Origin: an uncultured Pelagibacteraceae bacterium
GTDB lineage: Bacteria > Pseudomonadota > Alphaproteobacteria > Pelagibacterales > AG-422-B15
Direction: 5' to 3'
DNA: 64,000 bases
Assembly: GCA_902612095.1 (NCBI GenBank)
Contig: CACMBZ010000005.1
Location: 274 to 64,273 of the forward strand
Under the pieces are notes generated by a model. The model was not told the origin of the DNA, made no database searches, and was given only the letters and a program-made list of their open reading frames with translations. Positions 2,856 to 37,043 of the stretch are shown in pieces. Position numbers and translations under genes: made by a program. Position 1 is the stretch's first letter, and each line of letters begins with the position of its first letter.

Positions 2856-3410
2856 TTATTTTAAATTGTTAATAAATTTGGATTTTTCTCCATCCAATAA
2901 TATTTTTATATTTTCAGACATTTTAATATTTAATTCATTAATAACTTCTAACTCACTTTTTTTAAAATTACTTAATACATGTTTATTAACCATTTCTTTA
3001 TTGCCCGGATGATTTATACCTATTCTTATTCTATTATAATTTTTTCCAATTTTACTATCTATTGATTTGAGCCCATTATGACCTGCGGAAGAACCCCCCA
3101 ACTTGATTTTTATTTTTCCTAAAGTGATATCTAGATCATCATGAATAACATAAGTAAAATTTGATTTAATTTTGAAAAAGTTTAAAAAAGTTGCAATACT
3201 TTTACCACACTCATTCATATAATCATTGGATTTATAGGTGTATATTTTTTTCTTTCCAATAAGAAACGATGCCAACTCCCCATCAAATTTCTTTTCTCTC
3301 ATTACATCATAATGAACTTGTAAAAGTTGATCGATAAATAAATAGCCCACATTATGTCTATTATTTTTATGCTTTGTGCCAGGATTCCCTAATCCGATTA
3401 ATGCAATCAT
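2856..3410 (-). CDS. pth: peptidyl-tRNA hydrolase
   Basis: 184 aa. LIGLGNPG...RHNVG N-terminus and GGSSAGHNGLKSI motif. Conserved pth-rplY-prs neighbourhood. Confidence 0.9.
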   Translation of the reverse strand: MIALIGLGNPGTKHKNNRHNVGYLFIDQLLQVHYDVMREKKFDGELASFLIGKKKIYTYKSNDYMNECGKSIATFLNFFKIKSNFTYVIHDDLDITLGKIKIKLGGSSAGHNGLKSIDSKIGKNYNRIRIGINHPGNKEMVNKHVLSNFKKSELEVINELNIKMSENIKILLDGEKSKFINNLK

Positions 3411-3455
3411 ATGATTGAAGATATATAAATATCAAAATAGGTAAAAGAAAAAGTG

Positions 3456-4154
3456 TTATTCTTTATCTTTGTTTTCTTCTTTGTTATCAGCCTCTGGAGC
3501 TGCATCTTTTTTATCTTCAGCAGCAGAACCCTCAGTAGCTTCACCTTCAGCAGCCTCACCTTCTGCAGGAGCTTCAGGTTCTTTTACAACAGTAGGTGCA
3601 GCAACAGATGCTACAGTGAAATCTCTATCACTAATTGTTGGAGAAATTCCGTCACCTAAATTTGCTGCTGAAATTCTGATTGTGTCACCTATTTCTAAAC
3701 CCTCTAGATCGAAAACTATCTCTTCAGGTATATTATTAGCAGGGCAACTTAGTTGAACAGTACGTCTATTAACATTTAGAACGCCACCTCGTTTTAATCC
3801 AGGTGATAACTCTTCATTTATAAACCTAGTAGGAATGTCCAAAGTAATTTTTGAGTCTGCAGCTAGTCTCAAAAAATCAATGTGTATAGGTTGATCAGAA
3901 AGTGGATCAAATTGAACCTCTCTTGGAATTGCTAAGCTTTTCTTTCCATCAATGTTAAGTGAAAATATTCTAGTTAGGAAACCACCAGAATTGATCTCTT
4001 TTTGAACTGTAATCTTATCTAATGAAATATTGACAGGGTTTTCACCTAAACCATACATAACTGAAGGAATCTTACCAGCAGCTAGTACTTTTTTTACAGC
4101 GGATTTACCAGATCCATCCCTGATTTCAGCGTTTAAATTACTTTCTTTGCTCAT
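3456..4154 (-). CDS. rplY: 50S ribosomal protein L25/general stress protein Ctc, with acidic low-complexity tail
   Basis: 232 aa. Long-form L25 with G(K)IP(S)V(M)YG motif. The C-terminal E/A/P/K-rich tail is common in alphaproteobacterial Ctc. Confidence 0.9.
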   Translation of the reverse strand: MSKESNLNAEIRDGSGKSAVKKVLAAGKIPSVMYGLGENPVNISLDKITVQKEINSGGFLTRIFSLNIDGKKSLAIPREVQFDPLSDQPIHIDFLRLAADSKITLDIPTRFINEELSPGLKRGGVLNVNRRTVQLSCPANNIPEEIVFDLEGLEIGDTIRISAANLGDGISPTISDRDFTVASVAAPTVVKEPEAPAEGEAAEGEATEGSAAEDKKDAAPEADNKEENKDKE

Positions 4155-4205
4155 AACGATGAGGTTGGTATTAAATTAAAATTACCTATATGGCAAGTAT
4201 ATAAA

Positions 4206-5141
4206 TCAAAATTCAAATAGACTTGATACTGAGCTCGCCTCGGATATCCTCTTAATAGCCTCGCCCAATAAATCTGAGATACTAATCGACCTAATTTTCT
4301 CACAAGCTTTTAATTTTTCCTCATTATTGATTGAATCTGTAATTACTAGTTCAGTCAATTTTGATGCGCTAATTTTCTCTAATGCTTTTCCTGTTAATAC
4401 TCCGTGCGTAACATATGAAGTGATACTGTTAGCTCCTAAATCTATAATTTTGTCAGCTGCATTACAAATTGTTCCCGCTGAATCAATGATATCATCTAGA
4501 ATAATACAATCTTTTCCTTTTACGTCTCCAATGATATTCATTACTTCACTTTCACCTGCTTTGGGTCTTCTTTTATCAACAATAGCAATTGAGGCACCGA
4601 TCTTATTTGCAATCGCTCTTGCCCTCACAACTCCACCAATATCAGGAGAAACTGCAACTAGATTACTAATTTCATATTTTTGTTTTATGTCTTTTGAAAA
4701 CACTGGACCTGCAAATAAATTATCTGTTGGTATGTCAAAAAATCCTTGTATCTGTTCAGCATGAAGATCTAAAGTAAGTACTCTGTCTGCTCCAGCAGTT
4801 GTTATTAAATTTGCAACTAATTTTGCTGAGATAGGAGTTCTTGGCCCTGGTTTTCTATCTTGACGTGCATATCCATAATAAGGGATCACAGCAGTAATCC
4901 TTTTTGCTGAAGCTCTTTTAAGTGCATCTATCATCACCAGTAGCTCCATTATATTGTCATTTGCTGGGTAAGATAGAGACTCCATTACGAATACATCCTC
5001 ACCACGAATGTTCTCTTTAATTTCTACATAAACTTCATCATCAGCAAATCTTGTAATAGAAGCATTTGTAAGGTTTTCGCCAAGATATTCTGCGACACTC
5101 TTAGATAAAGGTAAATTGCTGTTTCCTGCAATAATTCTCAT
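4206..5141 (-). CDS. prs: ribose-phosphate pyrophosphokinase
   Basis: 311 aa. [12 protein letters not shown] and [11 protein letters not shown] motifs, plus the PRPP loop [11 protein letters not shown]. Confidence 0.95.
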
Positions 5142-5143
5142 AT

Positions 5144-5899
5144 TTATCTGTCTTTTATAACAATTGTTGAAATCATTCTACCATAATCGGTTATATTTTT
5201 TTTATAATTTCTTCGATAGCTAAAACATAATGTTTCTTCGCTGAAAGTATCGACATCAACAATCTCGTGGTTAGTAATTTGCTCATCAGAAAGTATCTTG
5301 AGAATGAATTCAGTAAGCGAAAACAGATATCTATCATTATGATTTTTTTGAAAAAATCTTGCATTATCTTGATCTTGTCTAATAAAGTTTTTGTAAAAAG
5401 GTAGTCTTACCTCATAGGATTTTTGTCTTATACATGGGCCAATACTGCAGCGTATATTATCTCTCTTTCCGCCCAGCTTAGTTATTTGTAAAATTGTATT
5501 TTGAATTATGCCATTCAAGGCACCTTTCCAGCCTGCATGACAAGCTCCTATTATTTCATTTTTCACTTCATAAAATAATAATGGAGCACAATCAGCCGTT
5601 AATACTGATAAGATTTTATTATTTTCTTTAGTTACAATTCCGTCACATTTTAAAATTTCAGACTTATTGCTGCCATCTAAAACTATTGCATTAGAAGAGT
5701 GTGTTTGATGCATCGTAATAATATCAGACTTTTTTAAACCGTAATATCTAGAAATAGTGACTAAATTTTCTTCAATTGCACCATTCTCATCTTTTGATCC
5801 TTTTCCACAATTTAATGATTTATATCTTCCTTGCGAAACACCACCCAATCTTGAAAAGAAACAATGATCTATATTTGAGAGATTTTTTGTAAAAAACAT
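5144..5899 (-). CDS. pgeF: YfiH/PgeF-family (laccase-domain, DUF152) protein
   Basis: 251 aa. TADCAPLL and CHAGWKG motifs characteristic of the YfiH family. Confidence 0.8.
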
Positions 5900-6927
5900 T
5901 AAATATTAATTTCCAAAACTTTAAATAAATTTCCCATATATTCTCTTTTGGTAAGTATTGCCAACTGTTCGTTTATTTGCTTCTCTTTCTTTGGGTTTTT
6001 CTTAATTAAGATATTAGCTCGATCTAAAATTCCATTTTGCCGAAGGAAATTAGATTGAGTATTTATTATAAAGTCATCAATTTTATTTTCTTCTAAAATA
6101 TTTTGCAGGTTATTAAAGTCTACATGATACGTGATATCTTGATTACCTGGGTTATCAAGAAAATCAGTTTTTTTATTTGATTTAATTGACTGAAGTGTGC
6201 TTATCTTAGGTAGATTAATATATCCATAATCAATTAGTAAGAAAAAACCATTATTCATAAGCAAGAAATTGATCAATTCCTGAAAGATTAAATTAGTCTC
6301 AGGAGAAAATTCAATTACCTCAAGATGTTTAAGGTCTTGCATATTTTTTATAAATTTAGAAATATCTGGTCTCGGCTTAATAAAGTCAAATCTTAGACTA
6401 TCATTTTGATCCAATTTAATAACTGTTTCATAAATATTTCCGTTCCTACTCATTAATTGGCGCGTAGGTATCGCATCAAAAAACTCATTTGCAATTATTA
6501 CTGAAAATTCACTGGGATATGAATTAAAATTTTTATGTATTTTACAATTAGGATAGGTATTTTTTAGATTTTGAATGTAGAATTTATTAATTTCATTAAA
6601 GTGAATTGTATACTCGACTCCTTCATCTAATAAAGCATTGAGTACTCTAGTAATATCATTTATCAGAGCGCCTCTTCCTGGTCCTAGTTCAATTAAATTA
6701 AACTTTTTTATGTTTCTTGCATGAATGAGGTTTAATATTTTTACAGCAATTATTTCACCAAACATTTGAGATATTTCAGGTGCAGTTACAAAATCTCCAT
6801 CTTTGCCTATAGCTTTTTTAGACGTATAGTATCCATGCTCTTCATCTCTTAATGAAATATTCATAAAATCATCTAGATAGAGAAATGCACTTTCTTTTAA
6901 AGCATCGTAAATTTTATCTTGTATCAT
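5899..6927 (-). CDS. SAM-dependent methyltransferase, MidA/NDUFAF7 (DUF185) family
   Basis: 342 aa. GDFVTAPEISQMFGE and LIELGPGRGAL motifs typical of MidA. Confidence 0.75.
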   Translation of the reverse strand: MIQDKIYDALKESAFLYLDDFMNISLRDEEHGYYTSKKAIGKDGDFVTAPEISQMFGEIIAVKILNLIHARNIKKFNLIELGPGRGALINDITRVLNALLDEGVEYTIHFNEINKFYIQNLKNTYPNCKIHKNFNSYPSEFSVIIANEFFDAIPTRQLMSRNGNIYETVIKLDQNDSLRFDFIKPRPDISKFIKNMQDLKHLEVIEFSPETNLIFQELINFLLMNNGFFLLIDYGYINLPKISTLQSIKSNKKTDFLDNPGNQDITYHVDFNNLQNILEENKIDDFIINTQSNFLRQNGILDRANILIKKNPKKEKQINEQLAILTKREYMGNLFKVLEINI

Positions 6928-7726
6928 TTTTAATGCTTTTAATTACTAAAATTAAAATTCCAGCAAGAAACATTGGTAAAGATAATATCATGCCCATTGT
7001 AAGAAAATGATATACAAATCCTAATTGAATATCGGGCTCGCGTGTAAATTCAACAGTAAATCGAAATAATCCATAAAGCATCAAAAAGACACCTGAAATT
7101 ATTCCAGGGTTTTTAAGTTTTTTAAATTTAAAAATTAAAAAATTTAAAATTATAAATAATAAAAGTCCTTCTAAAAAAGCTTCATATAATTGACTTGGAT
7201 GACGATACTGGTTGTCAGCGTTTGGAAATTTCATTCCAATAAGAAAATTCGAAGGTCTACCAAATAATTCGCCATTAATAAAATTAGATATTCTGCCAAA
7301 AAATATTCCAACAGGAGCTGATACACATATCAAATCGCTTATTTCAAAAAAAGTAGTTTTATAGAACTTTGAAATTATTATGGCGGCTATAACAATACCA
7401 AGCAGACCTCCGTGAAAGGATAAACCCCCTTGCCAAAGATATAATATCTCAATTAGATTTTCAGAATAATAATCATAATTATAGAAAATCACATATCCCA
7501 ATCGTGCTCCTATAATTAATCCAATTATTGAATAAAAAATTAGATCATCTATTAGTTTTTCATTGATGCTATTACTATGAGAAACTGCTTTATTTGAAGC
7601 GAGATATTTAATATATCTCCAAGCAAATATAAATCCTACAATATACGCAAGTGAGTACCAACGGATATCAAGAGGACCAATCGAAAAAAAAACTGGACTA
7701 ATAGATGGAAAACTAAGATAAATCAC
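6914..7726 (-). CDS. lgt: prolipoprotein diacylglyceryl transferase
   Basis: 270 aa membrane protein. IRWYSLAYIVGF, GGLSFHGGLLG, GRISNFINGELFGRP and HPSQLYEA motifs. Confidence 0.92.
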   Translation of the reverse strand: MIYLSFPSISPVFFSIGPLDIRWYSLAYIVGFIFAWRYIKYLASNKAVSHSNSINEKLIDDLIFYSIIGLIIGARLGYVIFYNYDYYSENLIEILYLWQGGLSFHGGLLGIVIAAIIISKFYKTTFFEISDLICVSAPVGIFFGRISNFINGELFGRPSNFLIGMKFPNADNQYRHPSQLYEAFLEGLLLFIILNFLIFKFKKLKNPGIISGVFLMLYGLFRFTVEFTREPDIQLGFVYHFLTMGMILSLPMFLAGILILVIKSIKNDTR

Positions 7727-7888
7727 GTTAATTTTGAATAATATTTAAAATATATTTATCACTAATTATGATCACAAGGAAAGTTTTAATTAATAAATTT
7801 GTTAACTTTGTTACAAAAGGCTTTGAGCTTTCGCAGGCGATCAATGATGAATACAAAACGATAAAAAAGTTTAAAAAAGATAGAAATA

Positions 7889-8740
7889 ATGCCAAAGAAA
7901 AAAAACACTGCAAGTAGTTTAAATAAAGAAAAATTTTTAATAATTGGTGCTGGTAATATGGGAATTGCTGTGATCAAGTCATTATTTAACCACCGAATTT
8001 CCTCAAAAAAAATTGTGGTTATTGAAAAGAATCAGTCAAGCGAATTGAAAAAATTAAAAAGATCAAATAATTTTGAAATAAAAAATAGCATAGATAAAAT
8101 TAATTATCTTTATCAACCTACAATCACACTTATCGCTGTTAAGCCTAATCAATTAAAAACACTGAATGGATTAGATAAAGATAATAGACTTGGTAATTCA
8201 ATTATAGTTTCCGTTGTTGCTGGTAAAAAAATAAAAGATTTAAATAAAGTCTTCAAAAAAACATCAGGTATTGTAAGAGCTATGACTAATACTCCTGTAT
8301 CTGTTAATATGGGTACCACAATTGTATATTTTGAGAGAAAAATAAAAACAAAACAAAAAAAACCTATTCTTGATTTCATGTCCTTATTGGGGCAAGTCAG
8401 TGAAACCAAAAAAGAAGATTTAATTGATGATTTCACTGCAATTTTTGGAAGTGGTCCAGCATACATATATCTTTTTATAAATTCTCTCATTGAGATAGCT
8501 AATAAATCAGGGTTTAAAAATTCGGACAGTATGGTTTTACAGACTTTCCTGGGATCAATATTACTTTTATTAAGTGGTCAAAAAAAGCCTTCTGATTTAC
8601 AGAAAAAGGTGACAAGTAAGGGAGGCACCACTGAAGCAGCGCTGAGTATTCTTGCTTCCAATAAAGGATTAAAAAGTCTTCTTACAAGAGCTGTCATCAA
8701 AGCAACAAAAAGATCTAGAGAATTGAGTAAAATTTCTTAA
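7889..8740 (+). CDS. proC: pyrroline-5-carboxylate reductase
   Basis: 283 aa. Rossmann IIGAGNMG, RAMTNTP and KVTSKGGTTEAAL motifs. The N-terminal ~15 aa are uncertain. Confidence 0.85.
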   Translation: MPKKKNTASSLNKEKFLIIGAGNMGIAVIKSLFNHRISSKKIVVIEKNQSSELKKLKRSNNFEIKNSIDKINYLYQPTITLIAVKPNQLKTLNGLDKDNRLGNSIIVSVVAGKKIKDLNKVFKKTSGIVRAMTNTPVSVNMGTTIVYFERKIKTKQKKPILDFMSLLGQVSETKKEDLIDDFTAIFGSGPAYIYLFINSLIEIANKSGFKNSDSMVLQTFLGSILLLLSGQKKPSDLQKKVTSKGGTTEAALSILASNKGLKSLLTRAVIKATKRSRELSKIS

Positions 8741-10041
8741 TTTGGTATTTCAATCGCAACCTCTAAACCTCCTAAATAACTGTCGTGCAGTGATATTTTT
8801 CCATTTATTGAATTCAATAAGGATTTAGTAGTAGCTAGACCTAATCCAGAGTTTGAGACATTCTGATTTCTACTTTGGTCTACTCTATAGAAAGGTTTAA
8901 ATACATTATCTTTTTCACTATCAGGAATACCAATTCCATTGTCATGAATGTTTATTTTAATTAGGTTTTTGTTTATATCTGCTTTAATTATTATTTTGTC
9001 AGATTGTACAATCGCATTATTTAATATATTTGTAATTGAGCGAGAAAAAATATTCTCATTTACAAAAACTTCTTCATCATTAATGATTTCAAGGTTTATT
9101 TCATGTTTTGTAAAATGTATATCATTCTTAATATTTATTATTGCTTCAATAGGATTAATTGCGGATTTATCTTTTGACTCATTTATAGCTGCAAAATCTA
9201 AATATTCTACTAGCATCTCATTCATCTGATTTATTTCTAAATTAAGTTCATTTTTAATTTTATTATCTTTTATTGACTCAAGAAGTAACTTCATTCTCGT
9301 GAGAGGAGTTTTTAAGTCGTGACTCACTCCCGCCAACATAAGAGATCGTTGTTCAATTTGTCTTGATATTCGATTTTTCATTTTTAAAAATTCCAAACTT
9401 GCCTGTCTTACTTCGAGGGCACCTGATACTTTGAAATTATTTACTTCTTGTCCTTTACCAAATTGTTCTGCTGCCTTAGCCAAATTCGAAATTGGTTTAA
9501 CTTGATTTTTCAAAAATAAATACGCTATCAAAATAAGGATAAATGATGAAATAATCTGCCACCCTAAAAATATATGGTTTCTTGAGGTTGTAATGCGATG
9601 AATTGGAAAGTTAAAATGTATTACTTTTTCTGAAGTGCTTATCATAACATCGACTGTCTCGTTATCTTGTTCAATAACAAAAAATTCATGATCAATTCGT
9701 GTATCCAATTCATTTTTTAAACTGACAAGTACTTGATTATCGTTTTGTTTTGCTTTTAACTGTTCCAAATCATATTCACTCAATTCTTGGATATTCATTA
9801 GAAAGTAATCACCAAATTGACTTTTGGCTTGATACTGATCTAACCTGATTTCACTTGAGAGCATTCTGTCAGAAATTAATTCTATTTCCATAGCAACAGA
9901 TCTTGATAGGCGGTTGAGTGTGCGTTCCCACAAACTATTATAGTAATATGATAGAATTATTAATTGAAACATAACTATTGGGAACAAAACAATTAACACT
10001 GTTCTTCCTAAAAGACTAGTTGGTAGAATTTTTTTAATCAT
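8737..10041 (-). CDS. two-component sensor histidine kinase (EnvZ-like)
   Basis: 434 aa. Two TM segments, HAMP-like linker, H-box GVSHDLKTPLTRM, N-box ILNNAI, G-boxes DNGIGI and GLGLA. Confidence 0.85.
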   Translation of the reverse strand: MIKKILPTSLLGRTVLIVLFPIVMFQLIILSYYYNSLWERTLNRLSRSVAMEIELISDRMLSSEIRLDQYQAKSQFGDYFLMNIQELSEYDLEQLKAKQNDNQVLVSLKNELDTRIDHEFFVIEQDNETVDVMISTSEKVIHFNFPIHRITTSRNHIFLGWQIISSFILILIAYLFLKNQVKPISNLAKAAEQFGKGQEVNNFKVSGALEVRQASLEFLKMKNRISRQIEQRSLMLAGVSHDLKTPLTRMKLLLESIKDNKIKNELNLEINQMNEMLVEYLDFAAINESKDKSAINPIEAIINIKNDIHFTKHEINLEIINDEEVFVNENIFSRSITNILNNAIVQSDKIIIKADINKNLIKINIHDNGIGIPDSEKDNVFKPFYRVDQSRNQNVSNSGLGLATTKSLLNSINGKISLHDSYLGGLEVAIEIPN

Positions 10042-31894: not shown

Positions 31895-31971
31895 GGGCCC
31901 ATAGCTCAGTTGGTTAGAGCCCTCCGCTCATAACGGAGTTGTCCTAGGTTCGAGTCCTAGTGGGCCCACCA
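31895..31971 (+). tRNA. tRNA with CAU anticodon (elongator Met or lysidine-modified Ile2), CCA encoded
   Basis: Hand-folded 77-nt cloverleaf. Acceptor GGGCCCA/TGGGCCC, D-arm GCTC..GAGC, anticodon stem CTCCG/CGGAG with loop CTCATAA, T-arm CTAGG-TTCGAGT-CCTAG, then ACCA. Not an initiator: G1:C72 is paired and there is no GGG/CCC anticodon stem. Confidence 0.9.
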
Positions 31972-32086
31972 AATAATTCAATGACTTAGGTCATATATTC
32001 CCAACTTTTATCTTTCGAAACGAGATCAGATCGTCATCTGGTCGTCAATTATATTATAAATATCTCATTGCTATTAGGACTATAGA

Positions 32087-32413
32087 ATGTATTATTTAAA
32101 TGTGAAAAAAATAATTATTTATTTTGCAATGCTTCTATTTATTTACTCTTGCGCTAAACCCCATGTAGTAGAAACAAGACAATATGGTGATGCAGATAAA
32201 TCATGTTCTCAATTAGATGATGAAATTTACAGAACTGAACAAGTGATTAAAGATGCGAAAGAGGAAAGAGGGTTAACTGGAACAAATATAGCTTCTACGT
32301 TATTTTGGTTGCCTGGTTTAGCTGCAACATATATGAATGTAAATAAAGCTGTTGAAGCAGGTGAAGAAAGACTTGATGTTCTCTATAATTTAAAAGCAAA
32401 AAAGAACTGTTAG
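32087..32413 (+). CDS. small putative lipoprotein, unknown function
   Basis: 108 aa. Hydrophobic signal sequence ending in the lipobox-like FIYSC. The GTG at 32102 (VKKIII...) is an alternative start. It is the only ORF in cassette 1. Confidence 0.55.
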   Translation: MYYLNVKKIIIYFAMLLFIYSCAKPHVVETRQYGDADKSCSQLDDEIYRTEQVIKDAKEERGLTGTNIASTLFWLPGLAATYMNVNKAVEAGEERLDVLYNLKAKKNC

Positions 32414-32514
32414 AGAACTTTAAGTTTCGTCATTCAGTTGTCATTGACTCTAAAAACTTAATATTTACAGAACTAAATTTGTTACATAATCTAGCTTAAA
32501 TGTTAAAGCTCACA

Positions 32515-32560
32515 GCTCATAACGGAGTTGTCCTAGGTTCGAGTCCTAGTGGGCCCACCA
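32515..32560 (+). repeat. direct repeat R1: 46/46 copy of tRNA positions 31926-31971 (anticodon loop to CCA), att-like
   Basis: gctcataacggagttgtcctaggttcgagtcctagtgggcccacca is identical to the tRNA 3' portion. The upstream gttaaagctcaca resembles a mutated D-arm/anticodon stem that can no longer pair, so this is not a functional tRNA. Confidence 0.9.
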
Positions 32561-32578
32561 AGAAAATAGCCCAAAAAA

Positions 32579-34642
32579 ATGAATTCAAGATCATATAGAC
32601 CAGAAATTGATGGATTAAGAGCAATCGCAGTATTGATGGTTATTTTTTACCATGCTGAAATCTCAATCAATAACGAAGTTTTTCTTAAAAATGGATTTTT
32701 AGGTGTAGATATTTTTTTTGTTATATCTGGGTTTTTAATTACAAGGATTATTCTGAACGAATTGGTTATAACAAAACATTTTTCAATTATTAAATTTTAT
32801 TTAAGAAGAGTAAGAAGAATCATTCCCGTACTGCTTTTAGTTATAATAACAACGATCCCATTCTCTTGGATTTTATTTCTTCCTGACGCACTAACGGATT
32901 ATTCTAAGTCCTCCCTAGCTTCTTTGTTGTTTTCTTCAAATTTTTATTTTTACTTTACAGAACAAGAATATGGAGCACAATCAAGTCTGCTAAAACCACT
33001 ATTGCACACATGGTCACTAGCTGTAGAAGAGCAATTTTATATTTTCTTTCCTTTAATATTAATTTTTTTTACAAAGAATAACTATTTCAAAAATTTTATT
33101 TTTGCAGCATTATGCATTCTATTCTTTTCTAGTCTCTTTTATTCAGAATATAATTCCTCTAAGAATATTTCTTCAAACTTTTATCTAATATATTCAAGAG
33201 TATGGGAATTAATGTTTGGCTCTATTATAGCCTATGTAAGTTTAAAAGCTAATTATACAAATAATATTACATCAAAATATTTTAGTTCAATTGGAATAAT
33301 ACTTCTAATATCTTCAGTCTTTCTATTAGATAAGACTATTACACATCCTTCTTACTACACATTAATACCAGTGTTAGGTGTTGGAATGATAATATTATTC
33401 ACTAACAATAATTCCATTGATATTGTTAAATCCTTACTATCAAATAAATTTTTTGTAGGGATTGGATTATTATCTTATTCTATTTACTTATGGCATTACC
33501 CAATATTTGCCTTCGCTAGACTATATTTTAATGAACCAAGTAATTTAACTAAATTTTTCTTAATAATACTTACAATTGCAATATCAACTTTAAGTTATTT
33601 TTACGTTGAAAAACCAATGAGAGACTCAAATGTAATAAGAAATAAAATATTTTTTTTAATTATCTCATCTGGACTTATTATAATTATATCATTCAATTTG
33701 ATTACTATTTCAAACAACGGATTTGCATCAAGAATACCACCAATATTTAAAATTATGCAGTCTGATATTGACCATATAGAGCACGGACAAAGTATTTTGA
33801 ATAATTATGAGTCATTATCTTCAATAACAAACTCATCTCCTGAACTTAACGAAATATTAGTTTTAGGAGATTCAATGGCTGACTTAAAATTTAAAGACTT
33901 ATTTTCAGAAGAATTAAATAAAGTAGGATATAATGTTAAATTTAGTACTGAAAAATTGTGTATTTACATAAGGAATTTTGATCTAATAGACGGTCAGGGA
34001 TTAATTAGATCAAGCTGCAGCAAAGATTATCAAAATGAGAGAGATAAAATAATAGAGTCTTATTCAGAGCCAATTCTGATTCTTTTTGGTCGTTGGCCTT
34101 TATATTTAAATAAAACTGAATTTAATGATAAAGAGGGAAATATAGAATGGCCCCAGTATAATTGGGACTATGTTTATGATGAAAGTATTTCTATAGAGGA
34201 AGGGATAATTAATACAATAAGATACAATTTGGACAGAGGGGCAAGAATTATTTTTATTGGACCATATCCAGAATTCGCTGTCGATCCACTTATACATTTG
34301 TATAGAAATATTGAATTATTCCAAAAATTAGAAAAAAATGAAAGTTTTAGTCGTGATGAAATTAATAAAATATCAAAGAATGTTTTAACTACTTCTTATG
34401 ATGTTATTTTAAAAAGAATTAATTCAACAATAGAAATGATAGATATAATTGACCACCCTAATTTTTATGCCGTTTTACCTCATAAAATATTATGTGATAA
34501 TTTCGTTAAGTCACGCTGTATTGCTTATAATGAGAAAAATATTTTTTATAAAGACATGACTCACCCGTCACTTGCGGGTAGCAATATCATTTTAGATCTA
34601 GTTATTGATAAATTAAATGAAATACAAATTACGAATAAATAA
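32579..34642 (+). CDS. acyltransferase-3 family O-acyltransferase with C-terminal SGNH/OafA-like domain
   Basis: 687 aa. The N-terminus RPEIDGLRAIAVLMVIFYHA and about 10 TM helices are typical of OafA/OatA/YrhL acyltransferases. Soluble C-terminal domain of ~300 aa. Confidence 0.85.
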   Translation: MNSRSYRPEIDGLRAIAVLMVIFYHAEISINNEVFLKNGFLGVDIFFVISGFLITRIILNELVITKHFSIIKFYLRRVRRIIPVLLLVIITTIPFSWILFLPDALTDYSKSSLASLLFSSNFYFYFTEQEYGAQSSLLKPLLHTWSLAVEEQFYIFFPLILIFFTKNNYFKNFIFAALCILFFSSLFYSEYNSSKNISSNFYLIYSRVWELMFGSIIAYVSLKANYTNNITSKYFSSIGIILLISSVFLLDKTITHPSYYTLIPVLGVGMIILFTNNNSIDIVKSLLSNKFFVGIGLLSYSIYLWHYPIFAFARLYFNEPSNLTKFFLIILTIAISTLSYFYVEKPMRDSNVIRNKIFFLIISSGLIIIISFNLITISNNGFASRIPPIFKIMQSDIDHIEHGQSILNNYESLSSITNSSPELNEILVLGDSMADLKFKDLFSEELNKVGYNVKFSTEKLCIYIRNFDLIDGQGLIRSSCSKDYQNERDKIIESYSEPILILFGRWPLYLNKTEFNDKEGNIEWPQYNWDYVYDESISIEEGIINTIRYNLDRGARIIFIGPYPEFAVDPLIHLYRNIELFQKLEKNESFSRDEINKISKNVLTTSYDVILKRINSTIEMIDIIDHPNFYAVLPHKILCDNFVKSRCIAYNEKNIFYKDMTHPSLAGSNIILDLVIDKLNEIQITNK

Positions 34643-34667
34643 TTTGATAGTTATGTTAATCCTTAAT

Positions 34668-34713
34668 ATAACGGTAATTACGAAGTTGTTCTAAGTTCCT
34701 ACTGGGCCCACCA
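34668..34713 (+). repeat. direct repeat R2: degraded copy of the tRNA 3' portion
   Basis: attacgaagttgttctaagtt-cctactgggcccacca aligns by eye to the tRNA 3' part with ~5 substitutions and a 5-nt T-loop deletion. It is followed by agaaaatagcc, the same 11 nt that follow R1. Confidence 0.7.
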
Positions 34714-34791
34714 AGAAAATAGCCAAATATTTTCTCTACTACGGTATTACCTAAACTAAGTCATGATCTGGTCGTGAATAAAATTGAATTT

Positions 34792-35934
34792 TTAATTCAT
34801 TGCCAATATATTCAGAGCCTTAAGCTGTATATTTATTTCTGTAATTTGAGCTTTCAATAATTCGTTTTCTTGACGTATTGAGTCATTCTCTTCCTTTAAC
34901 TGAGCCTTTAATATTCTATTTTCTTGCATTACAGCATCAATCTTATTCTCCAACATATGATTTTGTTTTTCAGCTACTCTTGCTGGTTTAACACTTCCAA
35001 ACTTAAACGTTATACCTGCTTTGATGCTCATATCCCTTGCCTCACTGATATCAGGTTCCCCATTCATCAAAAATGACGATCCAATATTAAATGATGCTGT
35101 TTGAAAGATCTTTGGTAAGTTGTCTGTAAAAGTATAGTTTGAAAAATCAGATGCACAACCTGCTGACAATGCAGAACTGCTGTCATGAATTCCTGTTCCC
35201 AAACCACACGTATAGAAAGCATCGGGTGAAGAATTAGGTAGCGCTGCAAGAGCTGAACTCAATGCAACAGAGCCACTAATGTCACCACCAATAATATCCA
35301 TAATGTTGCGTCCACCGATTAAAAGATTCGTTCCACTTTTAATATTTAAATCAATTTGATTGCCCGCAGAGTTGGTTGCATACAATTGTTGAACCCCATT
35401 TACTTCTTGTGTGACTAATGAGTTCTCACCAATATGTGTTGCTCCATCTGTTGTTACTTTAATTACTGTATCACCATTTGCGTCTTGTATATCAAGTTCA
35501 TTTGATGTATTTGATATTTGAATGGCGGTTTCTCCTCCTTCTCCAATCTGAGTCTTATTTGCTTCACTATTTTCATAGATTAAGTTTTTACCTGCCCAAG
35601 GTGTTTGATATATAGCTTGAAAATCACTGTCAAATGTAGCTGTTTGAGACATCGTATCATTTACTACGTCATAAACCATAAATACATCTTGTGAATCTTT
35701 TAAATAATACTTTCCATTATATGAGTCCATGAATGACACTCCGGGCGTCCAATATCCAGAAGGGAATGCAAACTGCTGTTTAAGCGTTGTATCCCCTGTA
35801 GTTAAATTAATGCTGTAGATCTCATTTTTTTCAATTACCGCATTATACTTAACTCCATAAACTAGATCTTCACTACTTAGTACACTCTCAATCATAGTAA
35901 ATACAAAAAATATTGAAGCTATTATTTTTTTCAT
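34792..35934 (-). CDS. secreted YadA-like (trimeric autotransporter-type) protein with an extra C-terminal coiled coil
   Basis: 380 aa with a signal peptide (MKKIIASIFFVFTMIESVLS). SVALSSALAALPNSSP...GLGTG...SALSAG...SIKAGITFKFG resembles the YadA membrane-anchor pattern as I recall it. The last ~60 aa are heptad-like (ENKIDAVMQENRILKAQLKEEN...). Confidence 0.55.
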   Translation of the reverse strand: MKKIIASIFFVFTMIESVLSSEDLVYGVKYNAVIEKNEIYSINLTTGDTTLKQQFAFPSGYWTPGVSFMDSYNGKYYLKDSQDVFMVYDVVNDTMSQTATFDSDFQAIYQTPWAGKNLIYENSEANKTQIGEGGETAIQISNTSNELDIQDANGDTVIKVTTDGATHIGENSLVTQEVNGVQQLYATNSAGNQIDLNIKSGTNLLIGGRNIMDIIGGDISGSVALSSALAALPNSSPDAFYTCGLGTGIHDSSSALSAGCASDFSNYTFTDNLPKIFQTASFNIGSSFLMNGEPDISEARDMSIKAGITFKFGSVKPARVAEKQNHMLENKIDAVMQENRILKAQLKEENDSIRQENELLKAQITEINIQLKALNILAMN

Positions 35935-36091
35935 AATTGTCTCCTTTAGAATTAATTAATTGAGAGTAACAAATATTTTAAAAAAAAAAGATGTTTATTT
36001 TTTGTAGTGATAAGGTCGTACTTTCTGTCTAAAACTATATATTTACAGACTAAAATTTGTTACAAACCAAGCTTAAAGGTTAAAGCTCACT

Positions 36092-36137
36092 GCTCATAAC
36101 GAAGTTGTCCAAGGTTCGAGTCCTAGTGGGCTCACCA
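36092..36137 (+). repeat. direct repeat R3: 43/46 copy of the tRNA 3' portion
   Basis: gctcataacGAagttgtccAaggttcgagtcctagtgggcTcacca, three substitutions counted by eye. The ~65 nt upstream also resemble the sequence upstream of R1. Confidence 0.85.
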
Positions 36138-36194: not shown

Positions 36195-37043
36195 ATGTCA
36201 TTTAATGTTGTACCCTCTGGACAAGCTTGTGGTGCTGAAATAACTGGAATCGATTTAAAGAGAGATTTGGACAAAAGTAAAATATCTGAAATAAGAGATC
36301 TTTGGCTTGAACATCAAGTCTTAAATTTTCCAAACCAAGCATTGTCTGATGATGACCTAGAACGTTTCACTCAATATTTTGGATCTTTTGGAGATGACCC
36401 ATTTATCGCCTCAATACCAGGTAGAGAAAATATAATTGCTGTTAAAAGAACCGCAGATGAAAAGGTTCCAATTTTTGCAGACAATTGGCACACTGATTGG
36501 AGTTTTCAAAAAAATCCACCAGCAGGTACGTGTTTATTTGGAAAAATAATTCCAATAGAAGGCGGTGATACGTTGTTTGCGAACCAACATTTAGCACTAG
36601 AGCGCATGCCCTTAGAATTAAGAAAAAAGTTGGAGGGGAAAAAAGCAATCCACTCAGCCCTCGTGCCTTATTCTCCGGGGGGTGGTTACGGTGATAAGGA
36701 TAGAGAAATGGGAAGAAGCATGGATATAAGAGCTTCAGATGATGCTTTTGCTCAACAAATACATCCTATTATTAAGAATCATCCTGAAACAAATAAAGAG
36801 GGTATTTATGGCACAGTTGGTTACATCATTGGTATTGATGGTATGGATAATCAGGAAGCTATGAAATTACTCATGGAATTAAGTTCATGGCAGTGCAAAG
36901 ATGAATTTGTTTATCGCCATAAATGGAAAAAAGATATGTTAATTATGTGGGACAATAGAAGTGTTCTACACCGAGCAACTGGTGGTTATGAAGGGCAAGA
37001 GCGTCTTTTACATCGAACAACCATTGCAGCATATGGAATATAA
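36195..37043 (+). CDS. TauD/TfdA-family Fe(II)/2-oxoglutarate-dependent dioxygenase
   Basis: 282 aa. WHTDWSF (H-x-D facial-triad region), GGDTLFAN, MWDNRSVLHRA and a distal HRTT. Confidence 0.85.
   Translation: MSFNVVPSGQACGAEITGIDLKRDLDKSKISEIRDLWLEHQVLNFPNQALSDDDLERFTQYFGSFGDDPFIASIPGRENIIAVKRTADEKVPIFADNWHTDWSFQKNPPAGTCLFGKIIPIEGGDTLFANQHLALERMPLELRKKLEGKKAIHSALVPYSPGGGYGDKDREMGRSMDIRASDDAFAQQIHPIIKNHPETNKEGIYGTVGYIIGIDGMDNQEAMKLLMELSSWQCKDEFVYRHKWKKDMLIMWDNRSVLHRATGGYEGQERLLHRTTIAAYGI

What the first reader, a model, noticed from the sequence alone, without database searches (positions are those of the whole stretch)
32087..35934. All three att-bounded cassettes encode cell-envelope proteins
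Cassette 1 encodes a 108-aa lipoprotein. Cassette 2 encodes an acyltransferase-3/SGNH O-acyltransferase, the family that includes phage-borne O-antigen acetylases such as Oac/OafA. Cassette 3 encodes a signal-peptide-bearing YadA-like outer-membrane protein. A consistent surface-modifying cargo at an integration hotspot suggests selection for altering phage receptors or surface antigenicity. Small lipoproteins and O-acetylases are classic lysogenic-conversion and superinfection-exclusion functions. In a streamlined genome, any such retained accessory cargo is notable.
Basis: inference. Interest (0 to 1): 0.6.

Follow-up and report, generated by a model that had tools for sequence, protein, structure and literature searches.

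The report
Envelope-gene cassettes at SAR11 tRNA hotspot
Three small swappable DNA modules behind a methionine-tRNA gene of a SAR11-type ocean bacterium each carry one cell-surface gene, and about four fifths of such modules in wild relatives do the same, so this site looks like a gene-swapping slot for remodelling the cell surface.

Summary
tRNA-Met(CAU) (31895-31971) is followed by three copies of its last 46 nt (R1 exact, R2 degenerate, R3 93%). They bound three one-gene modules with no recombinase. C1 is a lipoprotein of an uncharacterised family. C2 is an AT3+SGNH O-acyltransferase close to phage "O-antigen acetylases". C3 belongs to a new YadA-related family, but the window protein itself fails Pfam's anchor model.

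None is a core gene. Ten or more congeners have the empty site (tRNA directly followed by TauD), and each cassette occurs elsewhere in other combinations. Across 46 congeners and 75 metagenome contigs I found 52 complete cassettes in 33 cargo families. By a crude signal-peptide/TM rule, 27 are envelope-like, against 32% of the genome's ORFs (p about 5e-9). Several others modify glycans.

The cassettes keep both arms of a lambda-type attP. They derive from rare 6-7 kb integrase/Xis/helicase elements (tycheposon- or VEIME-like), so they resemble CIMEs.

The phage-evasion reading is plausible but untested, and there is no prophage here. This scan has already reported integrase-less tRNA/tmRNA cassette arrays in other SAR11 genomes. 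The new points are the measured envelope bias and the cassette-borne YadA-like family.

The parts
31895..31971 (+). tRNA-Met(CAU). Its positions 32-77 form the att core (attL side of the array).
   Evidence: ARAGORN. The same tRNA follows rpoD in all congeners searched.
31972..32514 (+). Cassette 1 (543 bp). The left arm carries CTTTCGAAA (32012-32020) and the paired repeat GATCGTCA-TCTG-GTCGTCA (32029-32047). The right arm carries the TTCGTCA...GTTGTCA pair (32426-32443) and a degenerate tRNA-5'-half-like stretch.
   Evidence: The same 543-bp cassette is the only cassette at this site in G052 and G045.
32087..32413 (+). C1: a small lipoprotein of an uncharacterised family. The likely real start is GTG 32102. 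It has a lipobox Cys22 and a conserved Cys40/Cys108 pair.
   Evidence: No Pfam, NCBIfam or PDB match. AF2 gives a helical hairpin at pLDDT 66. Weak hit to phrog_13472.
32515..32560 (+). R1: an exact 46-nt copy of tRNA positions 32-77.
32561..34666 (+). Cassette 2. It begins with AGAAAATAGCC (32561-32571), which is repeated after R2 (34714-34724). It lacks the conserved arms.
   Evidence: A copy whose protein is 95% identical lies directly behind the full tRNA in metagenome contigs L064-L065 (upstream part cut off in L063 and L066). Downstream of it lie a degenerate att copy and another ORF, identified as an abhydrolase on L063.
32579..34642 (+). C2: an AT3 + SGNH membrane-bound O-acyltransferase (OafA/OatA-type architecture).
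   Evidence: Pfam PF01757 1.3e-31 and PF19040 2.7e-20. GDS at 430-432 and DxxH at 659-662. phrog_6705 'O-antigen acetylase' 6e-138. Phage homologues.
34667..34713 (+). R2: a degenerate att copy with an insertion and a 5-nt deletion.
   Evidence: A more complete version is present in the metagenome copies.
34714..36091 (-). Cassette 3 (1378 bp). The left arm carries the pair GTCATGA-TCTG-GTCGTGA (34760-34777). The right arm carries the pair GTAGTGA...GGTCGTA (36004-36020) and AAAACT..ATTTACAGA.TAAAATTT.
34792..35934 (-). C3: a signal-peptide protein with five parts. These are a variable head (21-160), an invariant HIGENSLVT neck (167-), a predicted helix plus four-strand anchor (219-313) and a C-terminal coiled coil (324-380). 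It is a YadA-related (trimeric-autotransporter-like) outer-membrane protein.
   Evidence: The family occurs only in this genus among 300 genomes of the order.
36092..36137 (+). R3: the distal att copy (43/46).
36195..37043 (+). TauD/TfdA dioxygenase: the conserved right flank of the hotspot.
   Evidence: Pfam 2.5e-55. It follows the tRNA directly in the empty-site genomes.

Best explanation
The three modules are integrase-less mini-elements that have kept their att sites (CIME-like cassettes).

Origin. They derive from small tyrosine-integrase elements that insert into tRNA genes by recombining across the block from the anticodon loop to the 3' end. Each cassette keeps both arms of a lambda-type attP: a CTTTCGAAA box plus a pair of 7-8-nt direct repeats 11 bp apart. 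The integrase, Xis and helicase genes are gone and one accessory gene remains.

Stacking (inferred). Successive integrations at the regenerated tRNA end stacked the cassettes. Later shuffling probably uses rare integrases supplied in trans, homologous recombination between the 46-nt repeats and flanks, or both.

Cargo. Each gene acts at the cell envelope.
- C1 is a disulfide-pinned small lipoprotein.
- C2 is a membrane AT3-SGNH enzyme that most probably O-acylates a surface glycan.
- C3 is a probably trimeric, YadA-related outer-membrane protein. Its exposed head is hypervariable. A coiled coil follows the anchor and would lie in the periplasm.

Selection (inferred). At the population level this hotspot, and a second one at tRNA-Lys, hold a pool of single genes dominated by exported, membrane and glycan-modifying proteins. 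I think diversifying selection on the cell surface, from phages and possibly grazers, most likely maintains the pool.

Shown versus inferred. Shown: the anatomy, accessory status, domain content, cargo bias and the parent elements. Inferred: present-day mobility, protein localisation, substrates and the selective agent.
For: Anatomy.

Accessory status and modularity:
- The site is empty in G013, G015, G018, G022, G042, G049, G053, G058, G060 and G061.
- 15 of 37 congeners with the locus carry 1-3 or more cassettes.
- C1 stands alone in G052 and G045.
- C2 lies first behind the tRNA in metagenome contigs.
- C3-type genes occur in G005, G011 (three copies), G048 and G054. At tRNA-Lys(UUU), inside 45-46-nt repeats of that tRNA, they occur in G046 (two copies), G005 and G041.

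Arms. They are conserved across unrelated cargo, and the repeat type covaries between the left and right arm of the same cassette.

Parent elements:
- TARA contig L125 reads arm, core, arm, then a tyrosine integrase (PF00589, 79.9 bits).
- G096 has a complete 6.6-kb element at tRNA-Lys with a 68%-identical integrase, HTH_17 (Xis/AlpA-like) and an AAA_25/DnaB-like protein. Both of its arms carry 11-bp-spaced repeats.
- 44 of 46 congeners have only the XerC/D-like pair.

Cargo:
- Pfam, PHROG and phage hits for C2.
- Lipobox and cysteine pair for C1.
- YadA_head and YadA_stalk in C3 homologues, an anchor-like model, and a head at 30% identity against 66-74% for the neck, anchor and coil.

Census:
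- 27 of 33 cargo families are envelope-like, against 31.9% of 789 ORFs of the same genome; binomial p = 4.9e-9.
- Further cargo includes TylF and FkbM/RfbT-like methyltransferases, a SASA acetylesterase and an MrcB_N-HNH nuclease.
Against: - The cassettes may therefore be immobile scars.
- The envelope calls use a home-made hydrophobicity and lipobox rule, not SignalP or LipoP. The background comes from crude ORF calling in a 52%-complete MAG.
- Cargo families were counted once each, but contigs from related populations are not fully independent.
- C3 fails Pfam YadA_anchor. A profile of its anchor finds no solved TAA. Foldseek on the monomer model returns only weak beta-propeller matches.
- C2 and the FkbM cassette lack the conserved arms, so not every module has the same history.
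- Nothing ties the cargo to phage resistance experimentally.
Confidence: 0.55

Rival explanations
1. The anatomy is the same, but the envelope bias is a by-product of what can survive as a one-gene transfer. Exported and membrane proteins need few partners, so decayed elements that keep such a gene are tolerated or mildly useful, for example for adhesion or nutrient binding. Surface variation against phages plays no specific part.
For: The cargo includes Sel1-repeat, solute-binding-plus-caspase, MORN, M48/PDZ and many ORFan secreted proteins with no link to phage receptors. A hotdog thioesterase cassette recurs in three or four genomes. The literature describes the flexible genes of SAR11 in general as rich in transporters and unknown proteins (PMC11796062).
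Against: The glycan-modifying set is the classic serotype-switching toolkit: an O-acyltransferase, an O-acetylesterase-like protein and TylF and FkbM/RfbT-like methyltransferases. There is also a restriction-like MrcB_N-HNH gene. The C3 family has a hypervariable exposed head on a conserved anchor.
Confidence: 0.3
2. The cassettes are remnants of lysogenic conversion (moron) genes left by prophages that integrated at tRNA-Met. They act in superinfection exclusion.
For: C2 matches the PHROG 'O-antigen acetylase' moron family (E 6e-138) and the acetylases of temperate phages. C1 has a weak hit to phrog_13472 (E 5.5e-7).
Against: There are no phage structural or lysis genes in this or any related array. 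The att core has no exact match in IMG/VR contigs and no near-identical match in 50,697 phage records. C3 has no phage homologue and C1 has no tblastn or fold match. The integrase-bearing relatives are 6-7 kb integrase/Xis/helicase elements, not phages.
Confidence: 0.08
3. The repeats are local duplications of the tRNA end made by replication slippage or unequal recombination. The genes between them are ordinary lineage-specific chromosomal genes, not mobile modules.
For: No recombinase lies in cis, and SAR11 is known for high homologous recombination.
Against: In G024 the resident tRNA has a different T-stem variant from its two downstream repeats, and in G048 the distal repeat differs. The repeats were therefore imported, not copied in place. 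Unrelated cargo shares the arms. The same architecture occurs with an integrase (L125, G096). The same cargo family sits at two different tRNAs with the matching cores.
Confidence: 0.03

Closest known systems
CIMEs (cis-mobilizable elements) and tandem accretion at tRNA genes, described for streptococcal ICEs/IMEs (definition read in PMC5704250)
   Same: The elements have lost their integration and transfer genes but keep attL and attR. They are stacked in tandem at the 3' end of a tRNA gene by repeated site-specific integration.
   Different: Here each unit is cut down to one gene plus about 100-nt arms. The parents are 6-7 kb integrase/Xis/helicase elements of a streamlined marine alphaproteobacterium, not ICEs or IMEs. 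Cis-mobilisation has not been shown.
Tycheposons of Prochlorococcus (bioRxiv 10.1101/2020.12.28.424599) and VEIMEs, marine phage satellites found in Pelagibacter (PMC9618062)
   Same: Small elements with an inward-facing tyrosine integrase next to a tRNA, an excisionase/AlpA-like gene and a helicase/primase module. Partial tRNA copies and degraded remnants accumulate in islands. The G096 element and L125 fit this description.
   Different: The window holds only the stripped derivatives. No integrase of this family was found in 45 congeners. The cargo is dominated by envelope proteins, whereas tycheposon cargo is reported to be nutrient-uptake operons.
Partial-tRNA-repeat gene cassettes in SAR11 genomic islands (PMC11796062) and the additive island of 'Ca. 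Methylopumilus' marked by repeats of the last 20 bp of tRNA-Lys (PMC10872708)
   Same: Streamlined pelagic bacteria with flexible islands beside tRNAs. Repeats of the tRNA end mark inserted cassettes, and canonical mobile-element genes are lacking.
   Different: In the passages I read, those papers note the repeats. They do not describe attP arms, parent integrases, single-gene modularity or a quantified envelope bias.
Integron gene cassettes
   Same: Arrays of promoter-poor, mostly single-gene modules. Each carries its own recombination site, and the modules are exchanged within a population.
   Different: There is no IntI, attI or attC. The recombination site is a tRNA-derived core with lambda-type arms, and the recombinase is not resident at the array.
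AT3-SGNH O-acyltransferases (OafA/OafB of Salmonella, OatA) and phage Oac-type O-antigen acetylases
   Same: C2 has the fused AT3 and SGNH domains and the GDS and DxxH motifs. It scores 6e-138 against the PHROG 'O-antigen acetylase' family.
   Different: It shares only about 40% identity with any homologue other than its own cassette copies. The substrate in this bacterium is unknown. It is carried by an att cassette, not by a phage.
Trimeric autotransporter adhesins (YadA, Hia, EibD; type Vc secretion)
   Same: Signal peptide, variable passenger, neck-like invariant motif, and a helix plus four beta-strands predicted for the anchor. Two family members carry bona fide YadA_head repeats and one of them also a YadA_stalk domain.
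   Different: The anchor does not reach Pfam's threshold. It carries two conserved cysteines. About 65 residues of coiled coil follow it, so the beta-barrel is not C-terminal.

Membership tests
AT3-SGNH carbohydrate O-acyltransferase (OafA/OatA type) | N-terminal Acyl_transf_3 (10-11 TM) domain | tested here: met
   PF01757, E 1.3e-31, 110 bits against a cut-off of 31, residues 8-339. The R-x-H N-terminal motif RPEIDGLR...FYH lies at residues 7-25.
AT3-SGNH carbohydrate O-acyltransferase (OafA/OatA type) | Fused C-terminal SGNH domain with catalytic Ser (GDS) and Asp/His (DxxH) | tested here: met
   PF19040, E 2.7e-20, 73.6 bits against a cut-off of 27, residues 424-674. GDS at 430-432 and DMTH at 659-662.
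AT3-SGNH carbohydrate O-acyltransferase (OafA/OatA type) | Acylates a surface glycan (O-antigen, LOS, peptidoglycan) | not testable with these tools
   This rests only on homology: phrog_6705 and phage records annotated 'O-antigen acetylase'.
Bacterial lipoprotein | Signal peptide ending in a lipobox with an invariant Cys | tested here: met
   The window protein has ...LLFIYS-C22. The family consensus is LLxGC, and the Cys is conserved in at least 90% of 31 diverse members.
Bacterial lipoprotein | Processing by Lgt/LspA and membrane attachment | not tested
   I did not search the genome for lgt or lspA. There are no proteomic data.
Trimeric autotransporter adhesin (type Vc) | Match to the YadA_anchor domain (PF03895) | tested here: not met
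   The window protein has no hit at E <= 0.1. Homologues score only 15.6 and 12.4 bits against a cut-off of 22.7, though at the expected place. A profile of the anchor finds no PDB chain.
Trimeric autotransporter adhesin (type Vc) | Anchor topology: one helix followed by four beta-strands per chain | tested here: inconclusive
   The AF2 monomer model shows helix 219-230 and strands 241-250, 253-263, 280-291 and 301-312, but pLDDT is only 53-67 there. No multimer prediction was possible.
Trimeric autotransporter adhesin (type Vc) | Passenger built from YadA head, neck and stalk modules | tested here: inconclusive
   The window protein has none by Pfam. Homologues P0074 and P0113 pass YadA_head (42.6 and 27 bits against a cut-off of 25), and P0113 passes YadA_stalk (33.4 against 28.4) on the same conserved anchor.
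Trimeric autotransporter adhesin (type Vc) | The beta-barrel anchor forms the extreme C-terminus | tested here: not met
   About 65 residues of predicted coiled coil (324-380) follow the last strand. This feature is conserved in the family.
CIME (cis-mobilizable element) | Flanked by attL and attR of a site-specific integrative element | tested here: met
   The 46-nt tRNA-derived repeats and the conserved P and P' type arms.
CIME (cis-mobilizable element) | Lacks its own integrase and transfer genes but derives from elements that have them | tested here: met
   There is no recombinase in any cassette. Only XerC/D-like genes occur in 44 of 46 congeners. Integrase-bearing forms with the same architecture exist in L125 and G096.
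CIME (cis-mobilizable element) | Can be excised or transferred together with, or by, a functional element | not testable with these tools
   There is only indirect evidence: the same cassettes occur in different positions and combinations.
Integron | IntI integrase with attI and attC-bounded cassettes | tested here: not met
   No integrase lies at the array. The repeats derive from the tRNA and are not attC hairpins.
Prophage / lysogenic-conversion module | Phage genes, or a phage carrying this attP or these genes | tested here: not met
   Searches gave no match for the att core, C1 or C3. Only C2's family has phage members.

The most novel reading that the evidence does not exclude
SAR11-type bacteria of this genus run an integron-like system without a resident integrase. 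It would be a population-wide pool of one-gene cassettes. Each would consist of a complete lambda-type attP (tRNA-derived core plus integrase-specific arm repeats) and one envelope gene. Rare satellite-type integrases would plug cassettes in trans into tRNA-Met and tRNA-Lys, and the pool would serve to diversify the cell surface. One pool member is a previously undescribed autotransporter variant whose barrel is followed by a periplasmic coiled coil and which exists only on such cassettes.
Probability: 0.3. Interest if true: 0.7.

Novelty: new variant of a known kind. Interest (0 to 1): 0.5.

Why it matters
SAR11 is the most abundant bacterial group in the ocean and has almost no classical mobile elements. 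How its populations keep a large, fast-changing set of surface genes is an open question, bound up with the 'constant diversity' and 'kill-the-winner' ideas about phage control.

This locus gives a concrete, sequence-defined vehicle: single-gene cassettes that retain a full attP. It also gives a measurable property, about 80% envelope cargo. Both can be followed in metagenomic time series and tested with a plasmid-borne integrase.

In addition, the work defines two uncharacterised protein families: a small disulfide lipoprotein, and a YadA-related outer-membrane protein with a coiled coil after its anchor. Both are candidates for phage-receptor or adhesion studies in streamlined marine bacteria.

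Tried and rejected
- Pfam and NCBIfam gave nothing usable for C1 and C3.
- PDB profile searches gave only coiled-coil noise or nothing. This applies to the C3 family, its anchor alone and the C1 family.
- Foldseek of the C3 monomer model returned only weak beta-propeller matches to the N-terminal part (TM <= 0.2). I do not read them as homology.
- Foldseek of the low-confidence C1 model against viral structures gave no hit below E 0.8, so there is no link to known phage exclusion lipoproteins.
- The att region had no pelagiphage match among phage records. The exact 34-mer is absent from IMG/VR.
- Pattern-based searches for relatives of the L125 integrase in genome contigs and viral contigs found none. 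The six-frame search of the order did find them.
- G045's extra 415-aa integrase lies in a phage-like block away from any tRNA. G010's integrase belongs to a 5.9-kb element at tRNA-Gly that duplicates the other half of the tRNA. I link neither to these cassettes.
- The context of a 43%-identical AT3-SGNH homologue (next to pnp) did not show a glycan-synthesis island.
- The promoter and terminator scan found fewer sites than shuffled sequence and says nothing about expression.

Full report
**What is in the window**

The region lies in a low-GC (about 30%) genome of the SAR11 order. It is a 52%-complete MAG of 826 kb, and its relatives are 1.2-1.4 Mb.

After dnaG and rpoD comes tRNA-Met(CAU) at 31895-31971. 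Positions 32-77 of the tRNA, from the anticodon loop to the CCA end, recur three times downstream:
- R1 at 32515-32560 (46/46 identical);
- R2 at about 34667-34713 (degenerate);
- R3 at 36092-36137 (43/46).

The conserved TauD-family gene begins at 36195. The repeats delimit three modules of 543, about 2106 and 1378 bp. Each holds one long ORF, and none holds a recombinase.

**The three proteins**

*C1 (108 aa).* Homologues suggest a GTG start at 32102, which gives 103 aa.
- It has a basic and hydrophobic leader ending in a lipobox cysteine (Cys22).
- It has only seven close relatives. An exhaustive search finds 216 representative clusters of 100-150-aa proteins.
- In an alignment of 31 of them, the lipobox Cys is conserved in at least 90%, as are a second Cys (Cys40), an FWP motif and an Arg. 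The C-terminal Cys (Cys108) is invariant. The pattern fits an exported, disulfide-bonded lipoprotein.
- The family has no Pfam, NCBIfam or PDB relative.
- The AlphaFold model is a helical hairpin of modest confidence, pLDDT 66.

*C2 (687 aa).*
- It is an Acyl_transf_3 plus SGNH fusion. Both domains score far above Pfam's cut-offs.
- The SGNH GDS and DxxH motifs are intact.
- It scores 6e-138 over the full length of the PHROG family 'O-antigen acetylase'.
- Its AT3 half is 36-44% identical to the acetylases of temperate Pseudomonas and Salmonella phages.

*C3 (380 aa).* It has no Pfam hit of its own but belongs to a family of at least 287 marine proteins.
- The family has a signal peptide and a head of variable length. 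Mean pairwise identity in the head is 30%.
- The rest is well conserved: an invariant HIGENSLVT..G.Q.LYAT neck (74%), an ALAALP..YTCGLGTG anchor region with two conserved cysteines (68%) and a C-terminal coiled coil (66%).
- Two members carry YadA_head repeats, and one of them also a YadA_stalk domain, above Pfam's thresholds on this same anchor. YadA_anchor itself is hit only below threshold.
- The AlphaFold monomer model predicts the signature of a trimeric-autotransporter anchor, one helix followed by four strands (219-312). A long helix follows at 324-379.
- 'YadA-like' is thus a reasonable description of how the protein probably works. Formal membership fails on the Pfam anchor and on the rule that the barrel ends the protein.

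**Are they core genes?**

No.
- Of the 46 genomes of the genus, 37 contain the tRNA locus.
- In at least ten of these, TauD follows the tRNA directly, after about 50 nt.
- Fifteen carry one to three or more att-bounded cassettes.
- The rest have other insertions.

Each of the window's cassettes occurs elsewhere in a different setting.
- The 543-bp C1 cassette is the sole cassette in G052 and G045.
- A C2 cassette with a 95%-identical protein sits directly behind the complete tRNA in metagenome contigs L064 and L065, with the same junction. Downstream of the gene, on L063-L065, lie a degenerate att copy and another ORF; on L063 that ORF is an abhydrolase.
- C3-type genes occupy cassettes in G005, G011 (three in a row), G048 and G054.

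The C3 family was found in 7 of the 46 genomes of the genus (G000 included), in none of the 13 other family-f1 genomes and in none of the 241 Pelagibacteraceae genomes sampled. Its remaining copies lie at a second hotspot, tRNA-Lys(UUU). There they are bounded by 45-46-nt repeats of that tRNA's anticodon-loop-to-3'-end block.

**What the cassettes are**

Alignments of the sequences just inside the repeats show conserved arms shared by cassettes with unrelated cargo.
- The left arm holds a CTTTCGAAA box and then a pair of 7-8-nt direct repeats spaced 11 bp.
- The right arm holds another pair of the same repeat, then an A/T-rich block and a degenerate copy of the tRNA's 5' half.
- The repeat motif differs between cassettes (TCGTCA, TGCGGGA, TGCAGTCA, GCAGGCC). 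It matches between the two arms of one cassette.

This is the layout of an attP with arm-type sites.

Two finds confirm the reading.
- A 1.3-kb TARA contig (L125) reads right arm, 45-nt core, left arm (GGGCGT repeats on both sides), then a tyrosine integrase (PF00589, 79.9 bits).
- G096, a genome from another genus of the same family, has a complete 6.6-kb element at tRNA-Lys with exact 45-nt repeats. It encodes an integrase 68% identical to L125's, an HTH_17 (Xis/AlpA-like) protein and a 627-aa AAA_25/DnaB-like protein. TGACGTC repeats spaced 11 bp lie in both arms.

The cassettes' left arms even keep the ribosome-binding stretch that precedes the integrase in the full elements.

This integrase family occurs in 23 of 400 genomes of the order and in none of the 45 congeners. 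Forty-four of the 46 genomes have only the XerC/D-like pair.

The cassettes are therefore integrase-less, att-retaining derivatives of small integrase/Xis/helicase elements. Those elements are of the kind described as tycheposons and VEIMEs. The cassettes match the definition of CIMEs stacked by accretion.

C2 and the FkbM cassette lack the conserved arms. C2 is instead flanked by att plus the same 11 nt (AGAAAATAGCC), so its history differs in detail.

The repeats were imported rather than duplicated in place. Resident tRNAs and downstream repeats carry different compensatory T-stem variants in G024 and G048.

**Is the envelope theme real?**

Three of three in one window is weak evidence (p about 0.03). 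I therefore collected every complete att-bounded cassette from the genus loci and from 75 metagenome contigs that contain the att 34-mer. This gave 52 cassettes, 55 ORFs and 33 sequence families.

I applied one crude rule to all: an N-terminal hydrophobic 12-mer preceded by a basic residue, or at least one predicted TM segment.
- 27 of the 33 families are envelope-like.
- The background is 31.9% of 789 ORFs of the window's own genome, scored by the same rule with liberal start choice.
- The binomial p is 4.9e-9.

The six remaining families are:
- a TylF-type methyltransferase;
- an FkbM/RfbT-like methyltransferase;
- a hotdog thioesterase;
- an MrcB_N-HNH nuclease;
- TauD itself, which is an artefact;
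- a probably spurious ORF.

The exported cargo includes many lipoproteins, Sel1- and MORN-repeat proteins, a solute-binding/caspase fusion and a membrane-anchored SASA-type O-acetylesterase. A tRNA-Lys cassette in G054 carries three small secreted or membrane proteins.

The bias is thus strong. Its caveats are the home-made predictor, partial non-independence of the contigs, and the lack of a matched control of other flexible single genes.

**What it means**

The evidence fits a hotspot where single envelope and glycan-modifying genes are gained, lost and reshuffled. Three observations point to surface diversification, for which phages are the usual suspect in this field:
- the hypervariable head on a conserved anchor in the C3 family;
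- the serotype-type enzymes (O-acyltransferase, acetylesterase, sugar-type methyltransferases);
- a restriction-like nuclease.

The lysogenic-conversion version of the idea is not supported. There are no phage genes. The att core has no phage or IMG/VR match. C3 has no phage relative. C1 has only a weak PHROG hit of unknown function.

A neutral alternative remains open: one-gene transfers may simply favour proteins that work alone outside the cytoplasm.

**Relation to what is known**

Partial tRNA repeats marking inserted cassettes have been noted in four SAR11 islands (PMC11796062) and in Methylophilaceae (PMC10872708). Earlier follow-ups in this scan described integrase-less cassette arrays at tRNA-Gly, tRNA(CAU) and tmRNA in other SAR11 genomes. 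The vehicle is therefore a known kind.

This report adds:
- the attP-arm architecture, with covarying repeats shared by two tRNA hotspots;
- the identification of integrase-bearing parent elements;
- a quantified envelope bias of the cargo;
- two uncharacterised cassette-borne protein families.

One of those families is a YadA-related protein whose barrel is followed by a coiled coil that should lie in the periplasm.

Noticed in passing
window 32012-32047, 32426-32443, 34760-34777, 36004-36020; also L013-L040 and L068-L070: The cassette arms contain a CTTTCGAAA box and paired 7-8-nt direct repeats spaced 11 bp. The repeat motif differs between cassettes (TCGTCA, TGCGGGA, TGCAGTCA, GCAGGCC, GGGCGT, TGACGTC) but matches between the left and right arm of one cassette. 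These look like integrase-specific arm-type sites.
   Followed up: partly
L068 (G046:C10), L069 (G005:C10), L070 (G041:C3), L072 (G054:C20): There is a second cassette hotspot at tRNA-Lys(UUU), with 45-46-nt repeats of that tRNA's anticodon-loop-to-3'-end block and the same arm layout. It holds C3-type genes and, in G054, three small secreted or membrane proteins.
   Followed up: partly
L125:1-1304 (TARA contig) and L158:6134-12826 (G096:C35): These are integrase-bearing forms of the same element type. L125 reads arm, core, arm, then integrase, which may be an attP of a circular form. G096 has a complete 6.6-kb element with integrase, HTH_17 and an AAA_25/DnaB-like protein. The integrase family occurs in 23 of 400 genomes of the order and in 0 of 45 congeners.
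   Followed up: partly
window 34792-34989 (C3 residues about 314-380): About 65 residues of conserved coiled coil follow the predicted four-strand anchor. The barrel is therefore not C-terminal, and the extension should be periplasmic. This is unusual for trimeric autotransporters.
   Followed up: partly
L015:758-1543, L018:1827-2276, L117:556-1863 (cargo families F10, Cys-rich 149 aa, F05): A cysteine-rich C-terminal module (..C.YSC.G..H.IT.GA..CP..VKR, sometimes doubled) recurs at the end of otherwise unrelated cassette-borne lipoproteins and MORN-repeat proteins.
   Followed up: no
G024:C5 and G048:C1 tRNA-Met arrays: The resident tRNA and the downstream repeats carry different compensatory T-stem variants (CCCAGG..CCTGG against CCTAGG..CCTAG). 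This shows the repeats were imported with the elements. It also gives a handle on where the crossover occurs.
   Followed up: no
L074 (G010:C14) 3195-9190: A 5.9-kb integrase-bearing element lies at tRNA-Gly(GCC). It is bounded by a 54-nt repeat that covers the 5' part of the tRNA, so the sublocation differs from the Met and Lys cassettes.
   Followed up: no
L098:4257-5258 and L115:1538-2539 (metagenome cassettes): One recurrent cassette cargo is a 333-aa MrcB_N + HNH protein, a restriction-like nuclease. It is the only clearly defence-type cargo in the census.
   Followed up: no
window 32561-32578: C2's ATG lies 18 nt after R1, and the consensus scan found no promoter in between. C2 is probably transcribed by read-through from the tRNA or cassette 1. 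The same holds in the metagenome copies, where C2 directly follows the tRNA.
   Followed up: partly
L022, L023, L037, L038, L045 and others, between the last att and TauD: Many congeners carry a four-gene block between the hotspot and TauD that is not att-bounded. It comprises a 480-aa protein I guessed to be a photolyase (no domain search run), a 237-aa secreted protein, a 530-aa protein and a 100-aa protein I guessed to be ABM-like. The right flank of the hotspot is therefore itself variable.
   Followed up: no
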